A stretch of DNA of 64,000 nucleotides from an uncultured delta proteobacterium (GTDB lineage Bacteria; Desulfobacterota; Binatia; Binatales; Binataceae), in the NCBI GenBank assembly GCA_963793115.1, contig CAWBYV010000008.1, positions 228,250 through 292,249 of the forward strand, in the 5' to 3' direction. The notes below the pieces were generated by a model that saw only the letters and a program-made list of their open reading frames with translations, had not been told where the DNA came from and did no database searches. The position numbers were made by a program, and so were the translations under genes. Numbering within the stretch: the stretch's first letter is position 1; each line of letters begins with the position of its first letter. Positions 40,359-51,306 of the stretch are shown one piece after another.

Positions 40359-41593
40359 GCGTTACCTCCAGTCGCAGTTCCAGTGCCCGCCTCGATCGCA
40401 AGCGTCGCCAGCCGCGGCGCGAGCTGCGGGTCTACCCATTCATCATTGATATATTCGGGATAGATTGCCAGACGTTCCGTGAGCCGGAAGCCCGCGCGGG
40501 CGCATCGCTCGGCGAGCATCGCGATATGCGGCCACGGTGCTTCGGGGTTGACATAGTCCTTGCTGAGCGGCGAGATCCCGCCCCAGTCGTTGATTCCGGC
40601 GCTCAGGAACAGCTCGATCGAATTCGGCGACAGGTTCGGCGGCGCCTGCACGTTCATCTTGCCGCCCAGGACCAGCCGGGCGGTCGCGATCGCGCGCGCC
40701 ATCTCCATCTCGCCGGGCTCGGGCGCGCCGGCCATCGCGATATCGGGCTTGGCGCGGAAGTTCTGGACGATCACTTCCTGGATATGGCCGTGACGCTCGT
40801 GCGTATCGCGGATCGCAATCAGGCTCTGCGCGCGCTCGGCCGGCGTCTCGCCGATGCCGAGCAGGATGCCGGTGGTGAAGGGGATCCTCAACTCGCCGGC
40901 CTCGTCGATCATCCGCATCCGTAGCGCGGGGTCTTTGTCGGGCGCCGCCTGATGGACTCCGCCGCGTTCGCGCAGATGGGGCGAGACATTTTCGAGCATC
41001 AGCCCCATGCTGGCGTTGAGCGATCTCAGCCCCCGCATCTCGTCGCGGGTCATCAGGCCGGCGTTGGTATGGGGCAATAATCCTTCTTTCAGGGCGATCC
41101 CGCACGCGCGCCCGACGTATTCGATCGTGCTGCGCACGCCGAGCGATTTGAGCGTCTCGCGATACTCGCGGAAACTCACTTCGGGCTTGTCGCCGAGGCA
41201 CATCAGCGCCTCCTTGCAGCCGAGCTTGCGTCCCTGGCGCGACCACTCGGCGATCTCTGCGGGCATCATGGTCCACGCGCCGGGATCGCCGGGATCCTTG
41301 CGGAACGTGCAGTAGGAGCATCGATCGCGGCACAGATTGGTGATCGGCAGGAAGACCTTGCGCGAGTAAGTGACGTCGCGGCCTTTGGAAAGGTCGCGCA
41401 TGCTTGCTGCCGCGCGAAGAATCGCGGGCAGCTCAGCGTCGGAACATTCGATCAGCGCGATCGCATCGTGCTCGGACAGTCTACCGCCGCAGAGCGCCCG
41501 ATCGAGAATGTCGCGAATGATCGGCCGGATCGCCGCCTCGGTCGCGGCTGCGCCAGCGGCGTTCAGAGACGAGTCAAATTGCTCCAGCGCCAT
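40355..41593 (-). CDS. cofG: FO synthase subunit 1 (radical SAM)
   Basis: Radical-SAM motif CRDRCSYCTF. 412 aa. 4-nt overlap with cofH. Confidence 0.8.
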   Translation of the reverse strand: MALEQFDSSLNAAGAAATEAAIRPIIRDILDRALCGGRLSEHDAIALIECSDAELPAILRAAASMRDLSKGRDVTYSRKVFLPITNLCRDRCSYCTFRKDPGDPGAWTMMPAEIAEWSRQGRKLGCKEALMCLGDKPEVSFREYRETLKSLGVRSTIEYVGRACGIALKEGLLPHTNAGLMTRDEMRGLRSLNASMGLMLENVSPHLRERGGVHQAAPDKDPALRMRMIDEAGELRIPFTTGILLGIGETPAERAQSLIAIRDTHERHGHIQEVIVQNFRAKPDIAMAGAPEPGEMEMARAIATARLVLGGKMNVQAPPNLSPNSIELFLSAGINDWGGISPLSKDYVNPEAPWPHIAMLAERCARAGFRLTERLAIYPEYINDEWVDPQLAPRLATLAIEAGTGTATGGNA

Positions 41594-41686
41594 GACTGAT
41601 CGCGGTTATAGGTCATCGGGTATGGTGAGGCAACCGAGGCGCTATCAGCCTTTCCCGCGCCCTGTCTCAGAGTTGAATCCGCATTT

Positions 41687-41704
41687 CTGGAGCGGGTGAA
41701 CGGT
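41687..41704. repeat. 18-bp direct repeat CTGGAGCGGGTGAACGGT (copy 1) flanking the mazEF module
   Basis: Identical copy at 42387-42404, exactly 700 bp away. The two copies bracket mazF and mazE. Confidence 0.7.
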
Positions 41705-41709
41705 TTCTG

Positions 41710-42057
41710 TCAGATCGTAATGAAGGCGTTCAGCTTGGCGCGGACGAGTTGCGCAACCTCAGTCGGCACGGCAGCGCCCGCGTAACGGACGCGGCGGGCT
41801 ATCGCGTCGATACTGCGGATGTGGCTGGTCAGGATTTCGCCGGCGATCGGCAAGCCCGGCGGCAGAGCGACGCTGGTCGGAAATGGCCGCACGCGTGACG
41901 TGATAGGGCAGACAATTGCCAGCCCGGTGTTTTCGGTAAACCTGGCCGAAGAAACCACCAGAGCCGGTCGCCGGCCTGCCTGCTCCCTGCCTCTCGTCGG
42001 GTCAAAGTCAGTCCAGATCAGATCGCCTGCGCCGGGTGCGTAGGCTCGCCGGGTCAT
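41710..42057 (-). CDS. mazF: type II toxin MazF/PemK-family mRNA interferase
   Basis: 115 aa. GDLIWTDFDPTRGREQAGRRPALVVS matches the PemK/MazF N-terminal beta-strand signature. Confidence 0.8.
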   Translation of the reverse strand: MTRRAYAPGAGDLIWTDFDPTRGREQAGRRPALVVSSARFTENTGLAIVCPITSRVRPFPTSVALPPGLPIAGEILTSHIRSIDAIARRVRYAGAAVPTEVAQLVRAKLNAFITI

Positions 42058-42326
42058 TCTTCGACGATCTCACGGCCCACGTCCGGTCCCCAATCGAAGG
42101 CCCCGGCATAGGCCGCCCGCCACTGCTTAGGGCTCTTGCCCGCGAACAGCTCGTCCAAAGTGAAATGCGGAACGCTGCGTCGGATCACGATCTCCCCGTC
42201 ATGAGTCTCAATCTCGACACGCTCGCCGGCGCTAAGCGCGGCGGCCCTCACGGTCTCGCCCGGCAACCGGATCGCGAGATTTCTTCCCCATTTCCCGACT
42301 ATAGCTTGACGCACAGTGTCTCCCAT
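42054..42326 (-). CDS. mazE: type II antitoxin, MazE/AbrB-type swapped-hairpin family
   Basis: 90 aa. KWGRNLAIRLPGE..GERVEIETHDGEIVI matches the SpoVT/AbrB/MazE fold pattern. 4-nt overlap with mazF. Confidence 0.75.
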   Translation of the reverse strand: MGDTVRQAIVGKWGRNLAIRLPGETVRAAALSAGERVEIETHDGEIVIRRSVPHFTLDELFAGKSPKQWRAAYAGAFDWGPDVGREIVEE

Positions 42327-42386
42327 CGTGGGATATTCCTAGCATATCCCGTCGTGACGGGTCAAAATGGCGCGCGCGGAATTAGC

Positions 42387-42404
42387 CTGGAGCGGGTGAA
42401 CGGT
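42387..42404. repeat. 18-bp direct repeat CTGGAGCGGGTGAACGGT (copy 2)
   Basis: See copy 1. Lies roughly 60 bp upstream of the mazE start. Confidence 0.7.
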
Positions 42405-42793
42405 GTTTGGCAAGCTCTGCTTCTGGACCTTGGAATGGAACGAAGGGCCCCTTATTCTCGCGAGATTAGGGGCTGTTTTCAGGTCCGGGCGGGCAATCCC
42501 CCATTCCCATCTCTCAGCCATCTCTCATGTGCCAACCGATTTAAGGCTGTCTGAGACGGCTCTCGCCGGCCGTTGATTCTCCCCCGGCTTCGGCCGTTTC
42601 CGGGCCGTTCCGCCCTGATCCGGGCTCGGCTGCGGTCATCCATCGACACGGGGGACCGGGCTCGGCTGCGGCCGGGCTTCCCGGATCGGGACCCTTCAAA
42701 GGCCACTGGCGACCGAAGTCATCCGCTGACAGAATTAGATCGACGATCAAACTGGAGGCACCGGGTTGGACTGGCGGTTCTGACAAAGGACCC

Positions 42794-42998
42794 TATGACG
42801 GGCAGCTATGACAAGCAGTTTGAGGCTGCGGAGCACTACCTCAAATGCGACCGTTGCTCACGCCTATTTCGTGCTGCAGTAGAAGAATCCCTCAACCCCG
42901 TATTCGCACAATCAAATGGCCCACTTGGCCCGCTACGTTTTGACGAAGTTCTGCTGGACGAGTTTCGCAAGTGTCCCAATTGGCCATCGGGGCTTTAG
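42794..42998 (+). CDS. hypothetical small Cys-containing protein (possibly the N-terminal part of the next ORF)
   Basis: AAAGGA RBS 4 nt before the ATG. 68 aa with KCDRC and KCPNW. Lower GC than flanks. Confidence 0.3.
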
Positions 42999-43441
42999 AC
43001 CGGATTCCCACGGCAGAGGAGTTCGCCGCATTTGATGGCGAACACTGCCGAACCTTGTGGACGACTTGTGCTGCTGATTGGCGGTGCCCCGGCTGCAACC
43101 GGACGAGATTTGAGCTTCTCAGATGGACTAAAAAAATCTGGTATCCGGGCATTGGACCGGATCGGACCAAGCCTTATTGGGGTTGGAAGGCGGCACTCCA
43201 CCGGCACCATGATCACGCGCGCCCGGCGAGATTTGACGAGACCGTCGTCTGTGACCAATGTAATTCTCTCGACGCCATAGTGAAGCGGTACTTCGGCGGG
43301 ATTCGGCCCGAGTTTTCATACTCGCCGGACGAGATTCGCCAAATCGTTTCACCCGCACCGCATCGTAGCCACAAAGTTGACTTTCAGAAGGCGAGGCGCA
43401 TCTACAACGGGTGGCTGGAGTCGAAAAGAGTCCATCGGTGA
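42971..43441 (+). CDS. hypothetical Cys/His-rich (zinc-binding?) protein
   Basis: 156 aa, GTG start. WRCPGCNRT .. HRHHDH .. CDQCN pattern suggests a metal-binding His-Me-finger-like or zinc-ribbon module. Lower GC (mid-50s %). Confidence 0.35.
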   Translation: MSQLAIGALDRIPTAEEFAAFDGEHCRTLWTTCAADWRCPGCNRTRFELLRWTKKIWYPGIGPDRTKPYWGWKAALHRHHDHARPARFDETVVCDQCNSLDAIVKRYFGGIRPEFSYSPDEIRQIVSPAPHRSHKVDFQKARRIYNGWLESKRVHR

Positions 43442-43533
43442 GAGATGTATCTTTGACCGACCCGTCGAGAGGCGAGACGAGATGTATTTTGGCTTCGAAT
43501 CTTCAGTCGCGAGGTTTCACGGTACCGACATTT

Positions 43534-43839
43534 CTACTTCCCCTTGAGGCGCGGATCGTCGGTCGCGATGCAGGCTGCACTCGTGAGGTCGTTCAGCCGT
43601 TGTTCCGCGCCTTTTGCATGGCGGTCTACGGCCTCTCCCCCTTGCTGGATCAGCTCATCAACTCTTTTCTTGCAATCGTTGGCAGTGTCGAAGCTACCGA
43701 GGAGCGTCCACTCAGAAACAGGAGTGCTTAGGTCAACATCCATTTCATGCGTTTGATGATCATACGGCATTGGCGGAACCATCAGATACCAACCCGTGAG
43801 CGCGAGCGCGGCGGCGTGGCGCAGCTTCACTTTAACCAT
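43534..43839 (-). CDS. hypothetical secreted protein
   Basis: AGGAG RBS before ATG 43839. Signal peptide MVKVKLRHAAALALTGWYLMVPP. 101 aa. Low GC. Confidence 0.35.
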   Translation of the reverse strand: MVKVKLRHAAALALTGWYLMVPPMPYDHQTHEMDVDLSTPVSEWTLLGSFDTANDCKKRVDELIQQGGEAVDRHAKGAEQRLNDLTSAACIATDDPRLKGK

Positions 43840-44002
43840 CTCCTGCCCTCGATCCTGCCCCATCACCGCGCCCAAAGGAAAGAGCGGCCGACGATTTGTA
43901 GAGGGTCCCCCGGCCCCACGCGCCAGCAAAGGGGGGCGAAGCCAGCACGTCCTCGTCGTAGTGAGGGATGTGGCCTAACGGGCGTTGGGGTTGATTTCAG
44001 TT

Positions 44003-44758
44003 TCACCAATCGATCGTCAAGATCTGTGAACGGTGCCCACCCATATCTTCGTACATTTGGCGGTTGTGAAAGTTCAGTTGGCATTGACCCAAGTCTTCGC
44101 CCTCAATAGAGAGCCCGGTGAGTGGTGTGGGAGGGCCCTCAGGTTCTAGGAAAAGCAGGAACCAAAATCCACGGAAGGAGAACAACCCACCCTCAATGTG
44201 CTTGCCGTGCCTATTAATAATAAGAGGGGCAAACCCGACAGCATCTGAAGAATATCCCGTCATCCCTACGCGGACGATGGAATACAGACCTGCCCGATCC
44301 CCAAACCGCCCCAGTCCGTACGCGGTTTGAACGAGTCGGTCTGTTGGCCGACCAGGAACGTTGGAGTTACGCCCGATCGGGTAGATTTGATGGCAGCAAA
44401 GGTTGATCAGAGTCTTGAGGAACCAACGTTCCAAGCCAAGGCCATCTATCCTTCGCCTGGCGACCCTCCAGCGCCTCGGCTTCATTCGCCCACGCACATT
44501 TGACAGCCGTCCAATCTCTCTGAGCACGGAAAACGCTTCCGCGCCTGCCCTGTCCACGCAAGATAAGGCTTCGTTGTGATGCTTACAAAGAACCTTCGCC
44601 GTGAGGGCGGCGAGCCCGATCTCTTTCGCAGAGTCCTTACACCACGAGAATCCTTGCACGCGCACTGTATCAGTGATGAAGAGCGCGCCGGATACAAGGT
44701 GTTCTCTCGACAGCTTCTGGCTGCAATCTCCAAGACATGCCGCCCAGCACGCTCCCAT
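44003..44758 (-). CDS. HNH (His-Me finger) nuclease-domain protein with uncharacterised C-terminal domain
   Basis: ATG at 44758 gives MGACWAACLGDCSQKLSREHLVSGALF..KVLCKHHNEALSC: CxxxC..EH..(N)..LCxHHN resembles the HNH motif. Roughly 170-aa C-terminal region has no similarity I can assign. Lower GC than the genome. Confidence 0.45.
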   Translation of the reverse strand: MGACWAACLGDCSQKLSREHLVSGALFITDTVRVQGFSWCKDSAKEIGLAALTAKVLCKHHNEALSCVDRAGAEAFSVLREIGRLSNVRGRMKPRRWRVARRRIDGLGLERWFLKTLINLCCHQIYPIGRNSNVPGRPTDRLVQTAYGLGRFGDRAGLYSIVRVGMTGYSSDAVGFAPLIINRHGKHIEGGLFSFRGFWFLLFLEPEGPPTPLTGLSIEGEDLGQCQLNFHNRQMYEDMGGHRSQILTIDW

Positions 44759-44759
44759 A

Positions 44760-45083
44760 CTAATCTCTCTCGACGGAGACCTCCGCCGGTGTCGTGCCTC
44801 TCGATCCGGTGAGTGGGTTGTGCGCCGACTCTTGTCCGCGCAGCTGCCGGCCATAGTGCCCAAAACCTCCCGCCCCGATCCTCGTTGCCTTCCCGCGTTC
44901 TAACTCCGCCGCGCCCGATGGCGCTCGGCCCGAGCCAGAGACCGTGTCGCAGTCGCGACGGAGACAGTTCTCCCACGGAGTCTCTTTTTCCAGCAATTCG
45001 CGGAAGTCCGGGCTTTGCTCGATTAGCTGATCGATCAGATCGTCGCCCTCTTCCAGAGGAACCGTGTGCTTCTCACGTTTCAT
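44760..45083 (-). CDS. hypothetical small protein (partner ORF upstream of the HNH gene)
   Basis: 107-aa ORF. First roughly 45 aa (MKREKHTVPLEEGDDLIDQLIEQSPDFRELLEKETPWENCLRRDC) are lower-GC and protein-like. Stop TAG overlaps the downstream ATG as TAGTATG. Confidence 0.3.
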   Translation of the reverse strand: MKREKHTVPLEEGDDLIDQLIEQSPDFRELLEKETPWENCLRRDCDTVSGSGRAPSGAAELERGKATRIGAGGFGHYGRQLRGQESAHNPLTGSRGTTPAEVSVERD

Positions 45084-45092
45084 CGCTTGGCC

Positions 45093-45749
45093 TCATCGCT
45101 TCGCCGGTTGGCGAAAGGTCCAGAAGCGGACGCCGGTCGCGCCTGCGGCTTGGCCATCGATGATCAGCTCGAAGCCGTGGCGGCGATAGAAGGCGACATT
45201 GCGTGGATTTTCGGTCTCCACGTAACACGGCACGCCTTCGCGACGCGCCCGCTCCAGCATCGGCGCGATCAGTTCGCCGCCCAATCCGCGCCCCTGGAGC
45301 GCCGGTTCCACGCCCAGCAGAAGCAGATACCAGTACGGCTCCGTCATGTCGCGTTCGCGCGCCTGCGCCTCAAGCCCGACCACTTCGCGAAATCTTGCGA
45401 TCGCGTCTGCGCCGATGACGCTGGAAAGCTCATGGAGGCCCGCCGCCTGCACCCGTTCGCGCGTCCATTGAACGCCCGGCGGCAGCCAGAGCGCGACTGC
45501 TTCCATCGCGCCCGCGGTCGTATAAACCTCGCCGGCAAGCACGCCGAAGCGCAGCATCCGGATATAGAATTCCGGCAGCATTCGCGCGCGCTCGGCCGCG
45601 TCCGAGATGGCGTAGGCCATCAGCGGATCGTTCTGGAAAGCCCGTCCTAGTATCGCCGCCGCATCCCCGACCTGCGCTTCGCGTACGATTTCGCTTTGCC
45701 GTTTCACTCGATGTGTCTCTGCGAAGCAGTCTATCCGATCGGTTATCAA
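45093..45749 (-). CDS. GNAT-family N-acetyltransferase
   Basis: 218 aa. Acetyl-CoA binding motif (LLLGVEPALQGRGLGGELI) and C-terminal YRRHGFE. Confidence 0.75.
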   Translation of the reverse strand: MITDRIDCFAETHRVKRQSEIVREAQVGDAAAILGRAFQNDPLMAYAISDAAERARMLPEFYIRMLRFGVLAGEVYTTAGAMEAVALWLPPGVQWTRERVQAAGLHELSSVIGADAIARFREVVGLEAQARERDMTEPYWYLLLLGVEPALQGRGLGGELIAPMLERARREGVPCYVETENPRNVAFYRRHGFELIIDGQAAGATGVRFWTFRQPAKR

Positions 45750-46781: not shown

Positions 46782-46896
46782 TCCGCACGGCGCGTTGCGA
46801 GTGCAACGCGCGTCATTTGCCCGATTCGCATGATCGGGTAGTCTGATCGAAGTACGCCACTTCCCACCGGAGAAGCTCGCCGGAGAGGCTCTAACG

Positions 46897-47928
46897 ATGC
46901 CTGACCCTGATGGCGCATCCCCTAACGGCTCGCGCGTTGAATACGAGCTGCAACTCTACTACTGGCTGAAGCTGATCCGCTCGTTCGAAGATCGCGTCTC
47001 GAGGCTCCATCGGCAGAACAAGATTGTGGGCGGCGTTTACTCGGGCGCCGGACAGGAGGCGATCGTCACGGGAATCTGCGCGCCGCTTCGCGACGGCGAT
47101 TTCGTCGCGCCACTCCATCGCGACCTTGGCGTCTTCCTGATCCGCGGCGTCGAGCCGGGCCGGCTGATGGCTCAACTGATGGGCAAGGAGACCGGCCTGT
47201 CGCGCGGCAAGGACTCGTTCCTGCACGGCGGCGACCTGGAGCACGGCATCTTCGGCTCGACCTCGATGCTCGGCGCGTCATTGCCGGTCGCGGTCGGCGC
47301 GGCGCTCAAGTTCCAGATCAAGCAGGAGAAGCACGTCGCGGTGGCGTTCTTCGGCGAGGGAGCGGCCTCGCGCGGCGACACGCACGAGGCGATGAACTTC
47401 GCCGGCGTGCGCAAGCTGCCGGTGATCTTCGTCTGCGAGAATAATCGCTACGCCTACTCGACGCCGCTGGAAAAGCAGATGGCGATCGAGGACGTTGCCG
47501 AGCGGGCCGCCGCGTACGGATTCAAGGGGCATATCTGCTCGGGCAACGATCTGCTGGCGGTGCTGGAGCCAGCGAGCGCGTGATCGGGCAGGTGCGCGAG
47601 GGGGACGGGCCCGCGCTGATCGAATGCAAGACCTACCGCTACCGCGGGCACAGCGAGCATGATCCGGCGCTCTACCGCGAGAAAGAGGAATTGCTCCAAT
47701 GGGAGAGCCGCGACCCGATTCCGCAGTTCGAGTTCTACCTGGAAAAGAAGGGCCACGAGATGGCTCCGCTGCGCGAGCAGATCGACGAGCGCGTGCGCCA
47801 GGTCGATCCAGCAGGCGGTCGATTTCGCCGAGCAGAGCCCGTTTCCCGAACCTAAAGAAGCACTTGAAGATCTGTACGCAACCCCGGTCGGCCCCGGAGC
47901 CGCCAGGAACAGCCCGGTCAGGAACTAG
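46897..47928 (+). CDS. 2-oxoacid dehydrogenase E1 component alpha subunit (TPP-binding) (frame breaks near 47570 and 47800)
   Basis: ORF 46897..47583 has the TPP motif region (FFGEGAASRGDTHEAMNFAGVRKLPVIFVCENNRYAYSTP). Continuation ..GPALIECKTYRYRGHSEHD.. in ORF 47580..47855. C-terminus in a third frame. Confidence 0.75.
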
Positions 47929-47952
47929 AGAGCAATCGAGCCGATGGAAGCG

Positions 47953-48927
47953 ACTTATCTCAAGGCGATCAATCAGGCGCTGCACGAAGAGATGCGGCGC
48001 GACGAGAACGTCTTGGTGATGGGCGAGGACGTCGCCGAACTCGGCGGCGCGTTCAAGGTCACCGAGGGCCTGCTGGAAGCGTTCGGCGAGACCGCGTGAT
48101 CGATACGCCGATCTCGGAGACGCTGATCGTCGGCGCCGGCGTCGGCGCGGCGGTGATGGGGATGCGGCCGGTGGTCGAGATGCAGTTCGGCGATTTCATC
48201 TCGTGCGCCTTCGATCAGATCGTCAACATCGCCGCGACGCTGCGCTATCGGCACGGCGGCGCGGCGCGTCGTGCCCGATGGTAGTTCGTGCGCCGTCGGG
48301 CGCCGGCGTTCATGGCGCGATGTTTCATTCGCAGAATCCCGAGGCCTGGTTCACGCGGGTGCCGGGCCTGAAGGTGGTCGCGCCGGCCACCGCCTACGAC
48401 GCCAAGGGGCTGCTCAAGAGCGCGATCCGCGACGACGACCCGGTGATCTACTTCGAGCACAAGCGGCTCTACCGCAGTATCAAGGAGGACATGCCCGAAG
48501 GCGAATTCACCGTGCCGATCGGGGTGCGCCGAAGTCAGGCGCGAAGGGCGCGACCTGTCGATAATCACCTACGGCGGCACGCTTCATCAGTCGCTCGACG
48601 CGGCCCGGATCGTCGAGAAGGAGGACGGCGCTCTCGGTCGAAGTGCTCGACCTGCGCACGCTGCTGCCGCTCGATCGCGAGGCGATTCTCGCCACGGCGC
48701 GCAAAACCGGCAAGGTGTTGATCGTGCACGAAGATCGCCTGACCGGCGGGATCGGCGGCGAGGTCGCGGCGATAATCGCAGAGCATGCCTTCGAGTTCCT
48801 CGACGGGCCGGTGCGCCGGCTCGCGGCGGCGGACACGCACAACGCGTTCAGCCCGCCGCTCGAGGAATTCATCCTGCCCAACACCAACAAGATCGTCGAT
48901 GCGGTCCGCAGCCTGGCCGCGTACTGA
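47953..48927 (+). CDS. 2-oxoacid dehydrogenase E1 component beta subunit (multiple frame breaks)
   Basis: ATG 47953 ([30 protein letters not shown]..). Pieces in ORFs 48096..48284 (VIDTPISE..), 48203..48721 and 48643..48927 (..[22 protein letters not shown]..) are colinear with the transketolase-like E1 beta. Confidence 0.75.
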
Positions 48928-48928
48928 G

Positions 48929-50291
48929 ATGGCGCTCGAAGTGTCATGCCCCAGATGGGCGAGAGCGTGGTCGAGGGTACCGTCGCCAAGTGGCTGGTGC
49001 AAGGGGCGACCGCGTCGAGGAAGATCAGCCGCTCGCTGAAATCTCGACCGACAAGGTCGATACCGAAATTCCGTCGCCGGGCGCCGGCGTGATCGCCAAG
49101 ATCCTGATCGCGCGAGGGCGAGACGGTGCCGGTCGGCGCGCGGCTGGCGGTGATCGAGCGGCGGCCGCGGGGCGGCGCCGACTCGGCCGCCGCGGCCGTA
49201 TCCGCGCCGCCGCCAGCGGCGGCCGCGCAGTCGCCGCCGACGAGGCCGCGGCCGAGGCCGCGCAGCGCCGCGCGGCGGTCCGCCTCCAGCCGCATCGCTG
49301 TGCCGGCGAGTAGCGGCCGCGCGGACCGACGAGGCGGCGAGACGCTACTCGCCGGTGGTGATGCAAGATGGCGGCGGAACACGGGATCGATCTCGCCCGC
49401 GTGCAACGGCACCGGAATCGGCGGACGCGTCACCAACGCGACGTGGAGCGCTACCTGGAATCGCTGCAGCAGCCGGTCCCGTCGCGGCGGCGCGAGGCCG
49501 CCGCGTCGCTGCTCGCCGGCGGTCGCGCATCGCCGTCCGACCGGCAGCGTCGGACGCTTTCAGGCCGCCGATCTACCAGCCACGCGAGGGCGATGTAGTC
49601 GAGCCGTTCACGCGCCGTCGCAAGCTGATCGCCGAGCACATGGTCTTCTCGAAGACCCATGCGCCGCACGTCGGCACGGTCGCCGAGGTCGACATGACGC
49701 GCGTGGCTCGCCTGCGCGAAGCGCATAAGGAGAGTTCCGCGCTAGCGAGGGCTTTGCGCTGACGATTCTGCCGATCGTCGCGGCCGCGACGGTGCGCGCG
49801 CTCAAGGAGTTCCCACGCATGAACGCGTCGGTCGTGGGCGACTCGCTGGTGATCCGCAGAGACGATCAATCTCGGAATCGCGATGGACACGGAAGAAGGG
49901 TTGCTGGTGCCGGTGATCAAGTCGGCCGAAGCGAATGTCGGTGGTTGGCCTCGCGCGCGAGATCGAGAGTCTGCGCCGCAAGGTCGCCGGGAAGCACATT
50001 CACCGCCGACGATCTCGCCGGCGGAAGCTTTACCCTTTCCAATCCGGGACGCGAGGGAAATCGTCTACGGCTTCGCGATCATCAATCAGCCGCAGGTCGG
50101 AATTCTCAGGATGGGCGAGCTCAAAAAACGGCCGGTCGTGGTCGAGATGGACGGCGGGGACGCGCTCGCGATCCGCACGCATGATGTACCTCGCGCTCTC
50201 GTACGACCATCGCGTGATCGACGGCGTGCTCGGGAATCGCTTCCTCTATCGCGTCGCACGGATTCTCGAAGAAGCCGAGTTCGAACTCTGA
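48929..50291 (+). CDS. dihydrolipoamide acyltransferase E2 component (multiple frame breaks)
   Basis: Lipoyl domain ([24 protein letters not shown]), E3-binding domain ([24 protein letters not shown]), and catalytic domain ending ..[28 protein letters not shown].. (DHR motif). Spread over at least 4 frames between 48929 and 50291. Confidence 0.7.
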
Positions 50292-50303
50292 ACGTCGATT
50301 CTT

Positions 50304-51306
50304 ATGAAAGCGATGGCCGTACATATCCCGGCGCCGATCGAGACCAATCCGCTGAGCGCGATCGAAGTCCCCGCGCCGGAGCCGCGCGCCGGCGAAATTC
50401 TGGTCCGCGTTCTTACTTGCGGCGTATGCCGCACCGACCTGCACGTCGCCGAGGGCGATTTGCCGCCGCGGCTACCGTGCGTGATTCCCGGTCACGAAGT
50501 GGTAGGCATGGTCGAGCGATGCGGCGCCGGATGCAAGCGCTTCGAGCCCGGCGATCGGGTCGGAATCGCGTGGCTGCGCGAGACCTGCGGGGCCTGCGTC
50601 TATTGCCTGCGCGGGCGCGAGAATCTGTGCCCGAACGCGCGCTTCACCGGCTACGACCATGACGGCGGCTACGCCGAAGCTGCGGTGGTGCGCGAGGAGT
50701 TTGCCTATGCGATTCCCGACGCGCTCGGCGATGAGGAAGCTGCGCCGCTGCTCTGCGCTGGGATCATCGGCTATCGCGCGATCAAACGCGCCGAGGTCAA
50801 GCCGGGCTCGACCGTCGGACTGTACGGGTTCGGCGGCTCGGCGCATATCGCGATCCAGGTGCTGCGCCATTGGGGATGCCGCGTGTTCGTGATGAGCCGC
50901 GGCGGCAAACATCGCGAGCTTGCCGAGAGCCTCGGCGCGGACTGGGTCGGCGAGGCGCGGAGCGGCCGCCAGCGCCGCTCGACGCGGCGATTTTGTTCGC
51001 GCCAGCCGGCGAGCTCGTCCTGCCCGCGCTGGAAGCGCTCGATCGCGGCGGAGTTCTCGCCATCGCCGGAATCTATCTGAGCCCGATTCCGCAACTCGAC
51101 TACGAGCGCCATCTGTTTTATGAGAAGGAGCTCCGCAGCGTGACCGCGAACACGCGACGTCGACGGCGAGGAGTTCATGAAGATCGCCGGCGAGATTCCG
51201 ATTCGCACCCACACCGCGGCGTTCGGCCTCGGCGAGGCGAATCGTCGCGCTGAACATGCTCAAGCACGACCAGCTCAAAGGCGCCGCCGTGTTGCGGATC
51301 GGATGA
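50304..51306 (+). CDS. zinc-dependent alcohol dehydrogenase (frame breaks near 50960 and 51160)
   Basis: GHEVVG.., Cys cluster [15 protein letters not shown], Rossmann [13 protein letters not shown]-terminus ..[25 protein letters not shown].. in ORF 50870..51253, final residues in a third frame. Confidence 0.7.

What the first reader, a model, noticed from the sequence alone, without database searches (positions are those of the whole stretch)
42400..45090. Lower-GC islet of uncharacterised genes adjacent to mazEF: candidate novel defence or toxin module
From about 42400 to 45090 the GC content falls to the mid-50s %, against roughly two-thirds elsewhere. Every gene in the islet is unannotatable by simple similarity. 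The genes are a 68-aa and a 156-aa Cys/His-rich protein (+ strand), a 101-aa secreted protein, and a two-gene minus-strand unit. That unit is a 107-aa ORF whose TAG stop overlaps the ATG of a 251-aa protein with an N-terminal HNH/His-Me-finger nuclease motif and an unknown C-terminal domain. Position next to a TA system, compositional deviation, overlapping small gene plus nuclease, and the flanking 18-bp repeats are the hallmarks of horizontally acquired anti-phage or conflict systems. No known system I can recall (Septu, Gabija, Zorya, CBASS, retron, RM) matches this gene set.
Basis: partly seen in the sequence, partly recalled or inferred. Interest (0 to 1): 0.65.

Follow-up and report, generated by a model that had tools for sequence, protein, structure and literature searches.

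The report
Patchwork of acquired genes, not a system
The low-GC stretch is a real hotspot where unrelated foreign genes have piled up one at a time beside toxin-antitoxin genes, including two possible small nucleases, but it is not a single new anti-phage system.

Summary
Bases 42400-45090 are 57.7% GC against 64.1% for the window, the lowest 2-kb stretch in 64 kb. None of the five ORFs hits Pfam, NCBIfam, PHROGs or PADLOC.

The interpretation as one module does not hold. Six syntenic relatives (probably Candidatus Binatales) share cofG-mazF-mazE-[variable]-Phd antitoxin-GNAT. The variable slot is different, nearly empty or absent in each.

- **107-aa ORF:** not a partner gene. It is a Phd/YefM antitoxin remnant lacking codons 1-36, frameshifted after residue 33, with a read-through tail.
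- **251-aa protein:** belongs to a large unannotated family (2,991 clusters at 50% identity). It is always solitary, beside ever-different neighbours, on chromosomes, plasmids and three mycobacteriophages. A conserved E-H...C-x2-H-N...S...D pattern sits where a His-Me (HNH) active site would in a confident model. No profile or fold search confirms it.
- **156-aa protein:** a rare family carrying the full zinc and active-site pattern of T4 endonuclease VII, with weak statistical support.
- **101-aa protein:** a common small family with a hydrophobic N-terminus.
- **67-aa ORF:** unsupported.
- **18-nt repeats:** these flank mazEF, not the islet.

Verdict: an ordinary accessory-gene hotspot, with one uncharacterised family that may merit follow-up.

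The parts
41687..41704 (+). Left copy of the 18-nt direct repeat CTGGAGCGGGTGAACGGT, between cofG and the mazF stop
   Evidence: Two exact copies in the window against 0.10 expected. One copy at the same place in L056. No exact copy in L057, L071-L074.
41710..42326 (-). mazF (41710-42057) and mazE (42054-42326), a type II toxin-antitoxin pair forming the left edge of the variable slot
   Evidence: PemK_toxin E 5e-23 and MazE_antitoxin E 8e-10. 94-97% amino-acid identity in L056 and L071-L075. Absent from L057.
42368..42662 (.). Non-coding mazE-upstream segment holding the right repeat copy (42387-42404). Shared with relatives L073 and L074, and with L071 up to 42402.
   Evidence: blastn 41001-42662 at 86.5% to L073/L074, and 41001-42402 at 91.5% to L071. 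No Rfam match. No better folding than shuffles.
42795..42998 (+). 67-aa ORF, unsupported as a gene
   Evidence: GC3 0.54, below GC1 0.63. No counterpart upstream of the 156-aa homologues in L054 or L055. Called only on a 1,072-bp Logan contig.
42971..43441 (+). 156-aa Cys/His-rich protein: a rare family with an endonuclease VII-like His-Me finger pattern, CPGC(39-42)...HRHHDH(77-82)...CDQCN(94-98)
   Evidence: Six clusters in 5.8 billion proteins, 49-64% identity. Invariant residues in alignment A4. hhalign to T4 endonuclease VII gives E 0.0033, probability 9.7%, with zinc and active-site residues in register. Faint Pfam Endonuclease_7 hit for homologue P0126, E 0.26. 42368-43534 is an insertion relative to L056.
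43534..43839 (-). 101-aa small protein with a hydrophobic N-terminus, from a large family with near-invariant ends (LRHAAALALVGWYLM...CIATDDPRLK) and a variable middle
   Evidence: 476 homologues. Alignment A9. A 41%-identical uncalled counterpart sits at the same position next to mazE in L056. The closest homologue lies beside an integrase and an HTH_17 gene.
44003..44758 (-). 251-aa solitary accessory protein. N-terminal Cys-rich domain has a His-Me-like pattern (C4, C12, E19-H20, C40, C58-x2-H61-N62, S66, D69), followed by long helices (LERWFLKTLIN) and a beta-rich C-terminal domain.
   Evidence: More than 222 homologues of 248-251 aa. 2,991 clusters at 50% identity. Conservation. AlphaFold2 pLDDT 90.4, pTM 0.90. 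No Pfam, NCBIfam, PADLOC or PDB match. One hit among predicted viral structures over 81 residues. Found on plasmids and in phages.
44760..45083 (-). 107-aa ORF, a Phd/YefM antitoxin pseudogene remnant. DNA homologous to the relatives' gene spans 44895-45063; the original stop (CTA) is still at 44901-44903. The rest is read-through in a shifted frame.
   Evidence: blastn 44895-45063 at 85% to the Phd genes of L071-L074. Residues 8-33 match in frame and residues 23-90 match another frame of the same DNA. The Pfam PhdYeFM domain covers residues 1-49 of the intact relatives, mostly the part missing here. GC2 is 0.39 in the homologous half and 0.61 in the tail.
45093..45749 (-). GNAT acetyltransferase, a conserved gene forming the right edge of the variable region
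   Evidence: Acetyltransf_1 E 2e-10. 83-89% amino-acid identity in L056, L057, L071 and L073. Homology to all relatives resumes at 45076-45093.

Best explanation
The islet is a hypervariable accessory-gene slot in an otherwise conserved chromosomal neighbourhood of a probable Candidatus Binatales genome. The conserved frame is cofH-cofG | mazF-mazE | variable slot | Phd/YefM antitoxin | (aldo-keto reductase) | GNAT.

In this genome the slot was filled by separate events, not by one system:
1. A 1.17-kb segment (42368-43534) carrying the 156-aa endonuclease VII-like zinc-finger protein. The overlapping 67-aa ORF is probably spurious.
2. The 101-aa small protein with a hydrophobic N-terminus, which has a diverged counterpart at the same position in one relative.
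3. About 1.1 kb (43821-44894) carrying the solitary 251-aa gene.
4. A deletion that removed the 5' third of the Phd antitoxin gene. A frameshift then left the 107-aa chimeric ORF.

Shown: the mosaic structure, the pseudogene status of the 107-aa ORF, the absence of any conserved partner or neighbourhood for the 251-aa family, and its presence on plasmids and in phages.

Inferred: the 251-aa and 156-aa proteins are zinc-stabilised His-Me (beta-beta-alpha-metal) nucleases. In the 251-aa protein H20 would be the general base, E19 and N62 the metal ligands, and C4/C12/C40/C58(/H61) the zinc site. In the 156-aa protein H80 and N98 would play those roles, with C39/C42/C94/C97 binding zinc. The beta-rich C-terminal domain of the 251-aa protein would supply target recognition or control.

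My best guess for their role is that each is an autonomous single-gene element of mobile-DNA conflict: exclusion or defence, or selfish endonuclease. They travel alone and lodge in permissive slots stabilised by toxin-antitoxin genes.
For: Composition: lowest-GC 2 kb of the window, with low GC3.

Synteny with six relatives:
- L057 replaces all of 41638-45076 with 677 bp holding one unrelated 192-aa ORF.
- L071 has only about 250 bp between the Phd stop and the mazE upstream region.
- L056 carries a ParE-like gene, an intact Phd gene, a 75-aa gene, a 155-aa gene and a 101-aa-like ORF.
- L073-L075 carry 72-, 269/299-, 152- and 61-aa genes.

The 107-aa ORF: homology only to the C-terminal part of Phd, a frame switch, the retained old stop, and a non-coding-like tail.

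The 251-aa family:
- Homologue lengths of 248-251 aa fix the start codon.
- 53 genomic loci contain no homologue of any other islet gene and no recurrent partner gene.
- Neighbours carry 115 Pfam families in 100 genes, at most 2 each.
- DNA similarity to the closest homologues stops at the coding sequence.
- Copies lie on Granulicella, Bradyrhizobium, Rhodococcus and Mycobacterium plasmids near IS elements and toxin-antitoxin genes, and in mycobacteriophage Mao1 between terminase and portal.
- An Acidobacteriaceae subgroup lies next to MobC-like, relaxase, ParB and integrase genes.

His-Me pattern against the published definition (PMC5714182):
- H20 ends strand 16-20 and is preceded by E19.
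- N62 lies in the first turn of helix 59-64, after strand 53-58.
- S66 is at +4 and D69 at +7.
- All are at least 90% conserved across 150 diverse members and invariant even when phage and plasmid members are included.

The 156-aa protein aligns to T4 endonuclease VII residue for residue: H38/D40/H41/D42/H43 to H77/H79/H80/D81/H82, and C58/C61/N62 to C94/C97/N98.
Against: No profile method links the 251-aa family to any His-Me family:
- 0 of 150 members hit an HNH Pfam model at E<1.
- A PDB profile search gave nothing at E<=10.
- hhalign to T4 endonuclease VII gave nothing.
- hhalign to the 156-aa family gave only P 0.085.
- Foldseek against the PDB found no nuclease with either the full model or the N-terminal model.

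The Cys/His/Asn pattern could therefore belong to a non-catalytic zinc finger.

The endonuclease VII link for the 156-aa protein has low probability (9.7%). Its Pfam hit is below threshold.

No terminal repeats, target duplications, integrase or transposase define the inserted segments, so how they arrived is unknown.

About 10 of the 100 neighbours hit defence-type models such as pAgo, type I and IV restriction enzymes, and SoFic. A loose association of the 251-aa family with defence genes is therefore not excluded.
Confidence: 0.75

Rival explanations
1. One reading: the five ORFs, or at least the 107-aa plus 251-aa pair, form one novel multi-gene defence or toxin module acquired as a block.
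For: Shared low GC across the islet. Tight same-strand packing of GNAT, the 107-aa ORF and the 251-aa gene, with 9-nt and 1-nt spacers. Position between toxin-antitoxin genes.
Against: No co-occurrence of any two islet genes elsewhere. The 107-aa ORF is a truncated, frameshifted Phd gene that sits at the same place in relatives lacking the 251-aa gene. Relative to L056 the islet splits into separate insertions, with the 101-aa gene shared in between. No PADLOC hit.
Confidence: 0.04
2. The 251-aa protein, and possibly the 156-aa protein, is a self-contained single-gene anti-phage or anti-plasmid system: a nuclease effector fused to a sensing or target-recognition domain, lodged in a hotspot. 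A modification-dependent (type IV-like) restriction enzyme or an abortive-infection nuclease would be examples.
For: Solitary gene. Sporadic and phylogenetically wide distribution across Acidobacteriota, Pseudomonadota, Actinomycetota, Ignavibacteriota, Verrucomicrobiota and a probable Binatota genome. Found on plasmids and in variable slots next to toxin-antitoxin genes. Some neighbours are pAgo, type I or IV restriction enzymes, or SoFic. Conserved nuclease-like residues.
Against: No hit to any of 5,027 PADLOC models. Most neighbours are not defence genes and many are housekeeping. No fold match to SRA, PUA or other reader domains in the PDB. Nuclease nature unproven. Copies in phage genomes fit defence less well.
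Confidence: 0.22
3. The 251-aa and 156-aa genes are selfish free-standing endonuclease genes of the homing type. They spread by cutting DNA and being copied into the break, with no benefit to the host.
For: HNH and endonuclease VII-type folds are typical of free-standing homing endonucleases (PMC5714182). The insertions are single genes with similarity ending at the coding sequence. A copy lies between terminase and portal in phage Mao1, a classic site for such genes. Presence and absence differ among close relatives.
Against: Every locus is a different site, with no recurrent target. Homologues are old and diverged, at most 67% identical. No relative was detected in 2.9 million IMG/VR viral contigs using the two conserved motifs. 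No recognisable DNA-binding modules of known homing enzymes were found.
Confidence: 0.15
4. The 251-aa protein is not a nuclease at all. It would be a zinc-finger DNA- or protein-binding accessory factor of mobile elements, for example a regulator or a plasmid or phage establishment factor. The E-H/N pattern would be structural.
For: All profile and fold searches for His-Me relatives failed. The Acidobacteriaceae copies lie 0.4-2.7 kb from MobC-like and relaxase genes. The phage member carries an extra SEC-C zinc motif.
Against: E19, H20, N62, S66 and D69 are invariant or nearly so across very distant members. They fall exactly where the His-Me active site lies in the predicted strand-strand-helix unit. 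That is unusual for purely structural residues.
Confidence: 0.2

Closest known systems
T4 recombination endonuclease VII / Pfam PF02945 (His-Me finger group 13 of PMC5714182), for the 156-aa protein
   Same: Two CxxC zinc pairs. An H-x-[DH]-H-D-H strand motif. A C-x-x-C-N helix start with the metal-binding Asn. All are in register in an hhalign alignment to the PDB-verified T4 sequence. The protein is small and single-domain.
   Different: A 34-residue spacer between the first CxxC and the His cluster, against 11 in T4. Extra conserved N-terminal (H25-C26, W30) and C-terminal (FSxSPxEI, PH..H) regions. Below the Pfam threshold. hhalign probability only 9.7%.
HNH/His-Me finger superfamily with treble-clef zinc site (e.g. 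Pfam HNH, HNH_4, HNH_5), for the 251-aa protein
   Same: Predicted strand-loop-strand-helix unit. His sits at the end of the first strand, preceded by an acidic residue. Asn lies in the first helical turn, with a polar residue at +4. Cys ligands flank the unit.
   Different: No detectable sequence or fold similarity to any member. The first Cys pair is C-x7-C rather than CxxC. His replaces the last Cys. There is a long insertion with an extra hairpin between the strands. The unit is fused to a roughly 150-residue beta-rich domain with no PDB neighbour.
Phd/YefM type II antitoxin (PF02604), for the 107-aa ORF
   Same: Residues 8-33 are 73-77% identical to residues about 38-63 of the intact 90-aa Phd proteins at the same chromosomal position in relatives.
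   Different: It mostly lacks the N-terminal domain that defines the family. It is frameshifted and runs past the old stop codon. No toxin partner is adjacent. In L056 a ParE-like gene overlaps the start of the intact Phd gene.
Genomic integration hotspots or variable islets that accumulate toxin-antitoxin, defence and orphan genes
   Same: Conserved flanks, different cargo in each close relative, lower GC, small orphan genes, and toxin-antitoxin modules at the edges.
   Different: No integrase, tRNA, attC-like hairpins or flanking repeats bound the cargo. No recognised defence gene is inside. The slot is very small, at most about 2.5 kb.

Membership tests
His-Me finger (HNH) superfamily: 251-aa protein | Catalytic His at the C-terminal end of the first beta-strand, often preceded by D/E/H (PMC5714182) | tested here: met
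   H20 ends strand 16-20 in the pLDDT-90 model and is preceded by E19. Both are at least 90% conserved in 150 members and invariant when distant plasmid and phage members are included. This rests on a predicted structure only.
His-Me finger (HNH) superfamily: 251-aa protein | Asn or His in the first turn of the core helix after the second strand, with a polar residue at +4 or +8 | tested here: met
   Strand 53-58, helix 59-64, N62, S66 (+4) and D69 (+7), all at least 90% conserved.
His-Me finger (HNH) superfamily: 251-aa protein | Significant profile similarity to a recognised His-Me family | tested here: not met
   No Pfam hit at E<=1 for the protein, for five distant members or for 150 members. 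No NCBIfam hit. No PDB profile hit at E<=10. hhalign to T4 endonuclease VII gave nothing.
His-Me finger (HNH) superfamily: 251-aa protein | Structural superposition on a solved beta-beta-alpha-metal nuclease | tested here: inconclusive
His-Me finger (HNH) superfamily: 251-aa protein | Metal-dependent nuclease activity | not testable with these tools
   Needs biochemistry.
Endonuclease VII (PF02945): 156-aa protein | Four Cys zinc ligands as two CxxC pairs flanking the active site | tested here: met
   C39, C42, C94 and C97 are invariant in six homologues. C94 and C97 align to C58 and C61 of T4 endonuclease VII.
Endonuclease VII (PF02945): 156-aa protein | H-x-D-H-D-H-type strand motif and Asn after the second CxxC | tested here: met
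   H77-R-H79-H80-D81-H82 aligns to H38-L-D40-H41-D42-H43, and N98 to N62. H77, H79, H80, D81, H82 and N98 are invariant.
Endonuclease VII (PF02945): 156-aa protein | Score above the family's curated threshold, or a significant profile match | tested here: inconclusive
   No Pfam hit for the window protein. Homologue P0126 scores E 0.26, 11.7 bits against a 23.6 cut-off. hhalign gives E 0.0033 but probability 9.7%. A PDB profile search found only rubredoxin-type knuckles.
Phd/YefM antitoxin (PF02604): 107-aa ORF | N-terminal Phd/YefM fold (dimerisation and DNA binding) | tested here: not met
   The domain covers residues 1-42 or 1-49 of the intact relatives. The window ORF starts at the equivalent of residue about 37 and has no Pfam hit to this family. 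It is a remnant, not a member.
Known anti-phage defence systems (PADLOC-DB v2.0.0) | Any component protein matching a defence-system model | tested here: not met
   No hit at E<=1 for any islet ORF, nor for mazE, mazF or GNAT. The library dates from 2023, so later systems were not tested.
Two-gene toxin-antitoxin-like or small gene + nuclease operon | Conserved adjacency of the two genes across genomes | tested here: not met
   Upstream ORFs of 53 homologues are unrelated to each other and to the 107-aa ORF. The only match of the 107-aa ORF is to the Phd gene of L056.
Integron cassette array / attC cluster | attC-like imperfect hairpins between cassettes | tested here: not met
   Seven intergenic stretches folded on both strands give z-scores from -0.35 to +1.68 against shuffles. 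No Rfam match. ORF orientations are mixed.
Site-specific homing endonuclease gene | Recurrent insertion at one cognate target site, with presence or absence among close relatives | tested here: not met
   All 53 loci plus the plasmid and phage loci are different sites. Presence or absence is seen only at this one locus.

The most novel reading that the evidence does not exclude
The 251-aa protein represents a large family that neither Pfam nor NCBIfam recognises: about 3,000 clusters at 50% identity. It would be an autonomous single-polypeptide conflict nuclease: a divergent zinc-stabilised His-Me finger fused to a beta-rich domain with no neighbour in the PDB by Foldseek. It would act as a new one-gene defence or exclusion system carried by plasmids, phages and chromosomal hotspots.
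Probability: 0.2. Interest if true: 0.6.

Novelty: new member of a known kind. Interest (0 to 1): 0.3.

Why it matters
As a claimed new multi-gene defence system, it does not stand. It is a small accessory-gene hotspot of a familiar type, and one of its 'genes' is a decayed antitoxin.

Three things remain useful:
- A clean example, in a poorly studied candidate phylum, of a toxin-antitoxin-flanked slot whose cargo turns over between genomes about 83-94% identical at the DNA level in the flanking genes.
- A widespread solitary protein family that current libraries do not recognise. It has a confident predicted structure, a conserved active-site-like constellation and no PDB neighbour. If it proved to be a nuclease with a defence or exclusion role, it would add a one-gene system and a new His-Me variant.
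- A very rare endonuclease VII-like family.

None of these bears on a long-standing open question.

Tried and rejected
- **Flanking inverted repeat.** The 16-nt inverted repeat 42416-42431 / 45115-45130 brackets the islet. Rejected: the right arm is conserved GNAT coding sequence in L056 and in L057, which has no islet.
- **18-nt direct repeats as islet boundaries.** Rejected: they flank mazEF.
- **Integron or attC array.** Rejected: no hairpins better than shuffles and no Rfam hit.
- **tRNA-linked island.** No tRNA in the whole window.
- **Promoter and terminator scan.** Uninformative.
- **Conserved partner of the 251-aa gene.** A 107-aa gene lies upstream on the Granulicella tundricola plasmid, and a 107-aa ORF lies upstream in L001. 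Neither is related to the other or to the window ORF.
- **Linkage of the 156-aa and 251-aa genes.** A 155-aa gene lies upstream of the closest 251-aa homologue (L063/L064). It is an unrelated membrane-anchored classical HNH protein.
- **Terminal repeats of the 42368-43534 insertion.** None convincing.
- **Viral origin.** A scan of IMG/VR with two conserved motifs found no relative.
- **Source contig.** An exact look-up for the source contig found no gene on record with this product.
- **Literature.** A search for the three conserved peptide motifs found nothing.

Full report
**1. The observation**

A 400-bp sliding window shows GC of 0.535-0.59 between 42800 and 44800, against 0.62-0.70 on both sides. 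Over 42400-45090 GC is 57.7%, against 64.1% for the whole window. The lowest of all 2-kb windows starts at 42701 (0.562; mean 0.641, sd 0.020).

Third-position GC of the islet ORFs is 0.54-0.64. It is 0.73-0.83 for the flanking cofH, cofG, GNAT and DUF1028 genes, and 0.70-0.73 for mazEF.

- 67 aa, 42795-42998, + strand
- 156 aa, 42971-43441, + strand
- 101 aa, 43534-43839, - strand
- 251 aa, 44003-44758, - strand
- 107 aa, 44760-45083, - strand

mazF and mazE are confirmed by Pfam. None of the five islet ORFs hits Pfam, PADLOC, NCBIfam or PHROGs.

Two details are wrong. The TAG of the 107-aa ORF and the ATG of the 251-aa gene are separated by one base (TAGtATG) and do not overlap. The exact 18-nt direct repeat lies at 41687 and 42387, on either side of mazEF, not of the islet.

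**2. Source organism**

The window's NuoF and CofG fall in 90%-identity clusters with proteins named Candidatus Binataceae or Binatales. The best homologues of the 251-aa protein are from Acidobacteriota, at no more than 67% identity. That fits foreign origin and the lower GC.

**3. The locus in close relatives**

Exact-sequence look-ups of near-identical MazF, MazE and DUF1028 proteins gave six syntenic contigs: L056, L057 and L071-L075. All share cofD-cofH-cofG on one side and GNAT on the other.

- **L057** (92-94% DNA identity) matches the window up to 41638 and again from 45076. In between it has 677 bp with one unrelated 192-aa ORF, and no mazEF.
- **L071** has mazEF, then about 250 bp, then an intact 90-aa Phd/YefM antitoxin gene, an aldo-keto reductase and GNAT.
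- **L073-L075** carry 72-, 269/299-, 152- and 61-aa genes in the slot. The 299-aa protein has a faint PIN-like hit.
- **L056** carries a ParE-like gene overlapping the start of an intact 105-aa Phd gene, then 75-aa and 155-aa genes. It also has an uncalled ORF 41% identical to the window's 101-aa protein, directly next to mazE.

Relative to L056 the window therefore has two separate foreign segments, with the 101-aa gene shared between them. The first is 42368-43534, holding the 67- and 156-aa ORFs; it replaces 34 bp. The second is about 43821-44921, holding the 251-aa gene. Homology to L071-L074 resumes at 44895. The slot between mazE and Phd is thus a turnover hotspot, and the window's content is a mosaic.

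**4. The 107-aa ORF is a pseudogene remnant**

Window 44895-45063 is 85% identical to the 3' two-thirds of the relatives' Phd genes. Residues 8-33 of the ORF match Phd in frame. Residues 23-90 match a different frame of the same DNA. The original stop (CTA on the + strand, 44901-44903) is still there.

The first 36 or so codons are missing, together with the aldo-keto reductase or ParE-like gene that precedes Phd in relatives. Only 29 bp separate the homologous part from the GNAT stop. The Pfam Phd/YefM domain occupies residues 1-42 or 1-49 of the intact proteins, mostly the missing part.

Second-position GC is 0.39 in the homologous half, which is gene-like. It is 0.61 in the tail, which is not. 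So the 'small gene overlapping a nuclease gene' is an accident of decay, not an operon.

**5. The 251-aa protein**

It has more than 222 homologues in the word-indexed search, nearly all 248-251 aa. This fixes the start at 44758. An exhaustive profile search finds 2,991 clusters at 50% identity with E<=0.001, of which 502 have E<=1e-30. All are 'hypothetical'. None of 150 diverse members hits any Pfam HNH model, even at E<1.

Context of the family:
- In 53 loci from species-representative genomes, tblastn finds no homologue of any other islet gene, of mazEF or of GNAT. Most of these genomes are Acidobacteriota. Others include Ignavibacteriota, Nitrosomonas, Massilia, Pseudoduganella, Luteimonas, Agrobacterium, Chthoniobacter and Gemmatimonadaceae.
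- Clustering of all neighbouring ORFs finds no recurrent partner.
- The 100 genes called nearest to the homologues carry 115 Pfam families, none in more than two loci. They range from enolase, Cpn60 and SAICAR synthetase to integrases and NikA.
- About ten of the 100 hit defence-type models, including pAgo, type I and IV restriction enzymes, and SoFic.
- A subgroup in Acidobacteriaceae lies beside MobC-like, relaxase, ParB and integrase genes.
- Copies occur on Granulicella tundricola pACIX905 next to IS elements, and on Bradyrhizobium conjugative plasmids. They also occur on Rhodococcus and Mycobacterium plasmids among Phd/VapC, PIN and Fic genes.
- More distant copies are in three mycobacteriophages. 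Mao1 gp3 lies between terminase and portal and carries an extra SEC-C zinc motif.
- A motif scan of IMG/VR found no relative.
- DNA similarity to the closest homologues ends at the coding sequence.

Structure:
- AlphaFold2 with 30 sequences gives pLDDT 90.4 and pTM 0.90.
- The elements are strand 16-20, a hairpin 31-34/45-48, strand 53-58, helix 59-64, a long helix 66-90, helix 106-121 (the invariant LERWFLKTLIN) and a beta-rich C-terminal half.
- C12, E19, H20, C58, N62, S66 and D69 are invariant even when the plasmid and phage members are added. C4, W39, C40 and H61 are at least 90% conserved.

The published definition of the His-Me finger (PMC5714182) requires a His at the end of strand 1, preceded by D/E/H. 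It also requires an Asn or His in the first turn of the helix, with a polar residue at +4 or +8. The pattern fits: E19-H20, N62 and S66.

Every independent test failed, however:
- PDB profile search: nothing at E<=10.
- Foldseek against the PDB, with the full model and with an N-terminal model of pLDDT 73.
- hhalign to T4 endonuclease VII.
- The only structural neighbour is an unnamed 271-aa viral protein in the BFVD library of predicted viral structures: 81 residues, rmsd 1.4 A, E 2.4e-4. It is evidently a family member.

The nuclease reading is therefore plausible but unproven.

**6. The 156-aa protein**

Only six clusters exist in 5.8 billion proteins, at 49-64% identity. They sit in unrelated contexts, one next to an SNF2/ResIII helicase fragment. 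The 67-aa ORF is not conserved upstream of them.

Invariant residues include C39-P-G-C42, H77, H79-H80-D81-H82 and C94-D-x-C97-N98.

hhalign of the family against it aligns H38/D40/H41/D42/H43 to H77/H79/H80/D81/H82. It aligns C58/C61/N62 to C94/C97/N98. The result is E 0.0033 at 9.7% probability. One homologue has a sub-threshold Pfam Endonuclease_7 hit, E 0.26.

The residue-by-residue match of zinc and active-site positions is good. The statistics are weak.

**7. The 101-aa protein**

It has 476 homologues of about 90-105 aa. The N-terminus (LRHAAALALVGWYLM.PP) and C-terminus (C[IV]ATDDPRLK) are almost invariant. The middle is variable, with a conserved W, D and Cys.

Its closest homologue lies at the edge of an integrase/HTH_17 element. 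Another lies in an ordinary chromosomal context. It is a real gene of unknown function. No link to the other islet genes was found.

**8. How the segments arrived**

No tRNA, no Rfam family, no integrase or transposase in the slot, and no convincing terminal repeats. No attC-like hairpins were found: z-scores run from -0.35 to +1.68. The 16-nt inverted repeat bracketing the islet is coincidental, because its right arm is conserved GNAT coding sequence in relatives without the islet. The mechanism of turnover remains unknown.

**9. Verdict**

The compositional observation is right, and the region is acquired and variable. It is a patchwork of independent single genes and a decayed antitoxin, not a coherent novel system.

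The residual interest lies in three places. The first is the large unannotated 251-aa family: a candidate divergent His-Me nuclease with no PDB neighbour. The second is the rare endonuclease VII-like family. The third is the turnover slot between two toxin-antitoxin genes, in a candidate phylum that has been little studied.

Noticed in passing
window 41687-42412 (mazEF cassette): mazEF is bracketed by an 18-nt exact direct repeat (26 nt at 88%). The whole cassette is absent from relative L057. In L056 it is 96% identical at the DNA level, while the adjacent cofG side is 89.7% and the GNAT side 83%. This looks like a mobile or recently exchanged toxin-antitoxin cassette. L056 has only the left repeat copy, plus 75 extra bp, and near-palindromic GCTTGSCAAGC motifs sit on both sides.
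   Followed up: partly
window 46783-50304: About 3.5 kb carrying the E1/E2 2-oxoacid dehydrogenase genes has no counterpart in relative L057, where 10929 joins directly to 10938. It is present in L056 and L071. This is a second indel between close relatives, just outside the finding.
   Followed up: no
window 43534-43839; alignment A9: The 101-aa protein family has an unusually conserved hydrophobic N-terminus (LRHAAALALVGWYLM.PP) and C-terminus (CIATDDPRLKGK) around a hypervariable middle. DNA identity to L056 survives only at the two ends of the gene (43535-43572 and 43772-43820). Two paralogues lie on one 279-kb contig. No published mention of the motifs was found.
   Followed up: partly
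L074 1114-2013, L073 4961-5770: In other relatives the same slot holds a 269/299-aa protein beginning MKVIYLDTCAL, with a faint PIN_12 hit (E 0.066). It lies downstream of the intact Phd antitoxin and may be a PIN-type toxin partner.
   Followed up: partly
L056 7377-7959: A 95-aa ParE/RelE-like gene (Pfam ParE_toxin E 0.0027, below threshold) overlaps the start of the 105-aa Phd/YefM gene by 23 nt. The order is toxin first, then antitoxin, the reverse of the usual one.
   Followed up: no
L058 1727-2920 (Mycobacterium phage Mao1 gene 3): This 397-aa phage protein lies between terminase and portal. It combines an N-terminal SEC-C zinc motif with a distant copy of the 251-aa family domain. Phages Sejanus and Mask carry a related gene at the same position.
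   Followed up: partly
L035-L045 (Acidobacteriaceae loci): A subfamily of about 238-245 aa lies 0.4-2.7 kb upstream of MobC-like and TrwC-type relaxase genes. It may sit in the transfer-leading part of conjugative elements.
   Followed up: no
window 42580-42720: The long non-coding stretch upstream of the 67-aa ORF holds two exact 16-nt direct repeats (CCGGGCTCGGCTGCGG, 36 nt apart) inside an 11-nt inverted repeat. Folding is no better than shuffles. Function unknown.
   Followed up: partly
L063 1451-1918: Next to the closest homologue of the 251-aa protein lies a 155-aa membrane-anchored classical HNH endonuclease (Pfam HNH E 3e-5). It is unrelated to the window's 156-aa protein. The similar length is a coincidence.
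   Followed up: yes
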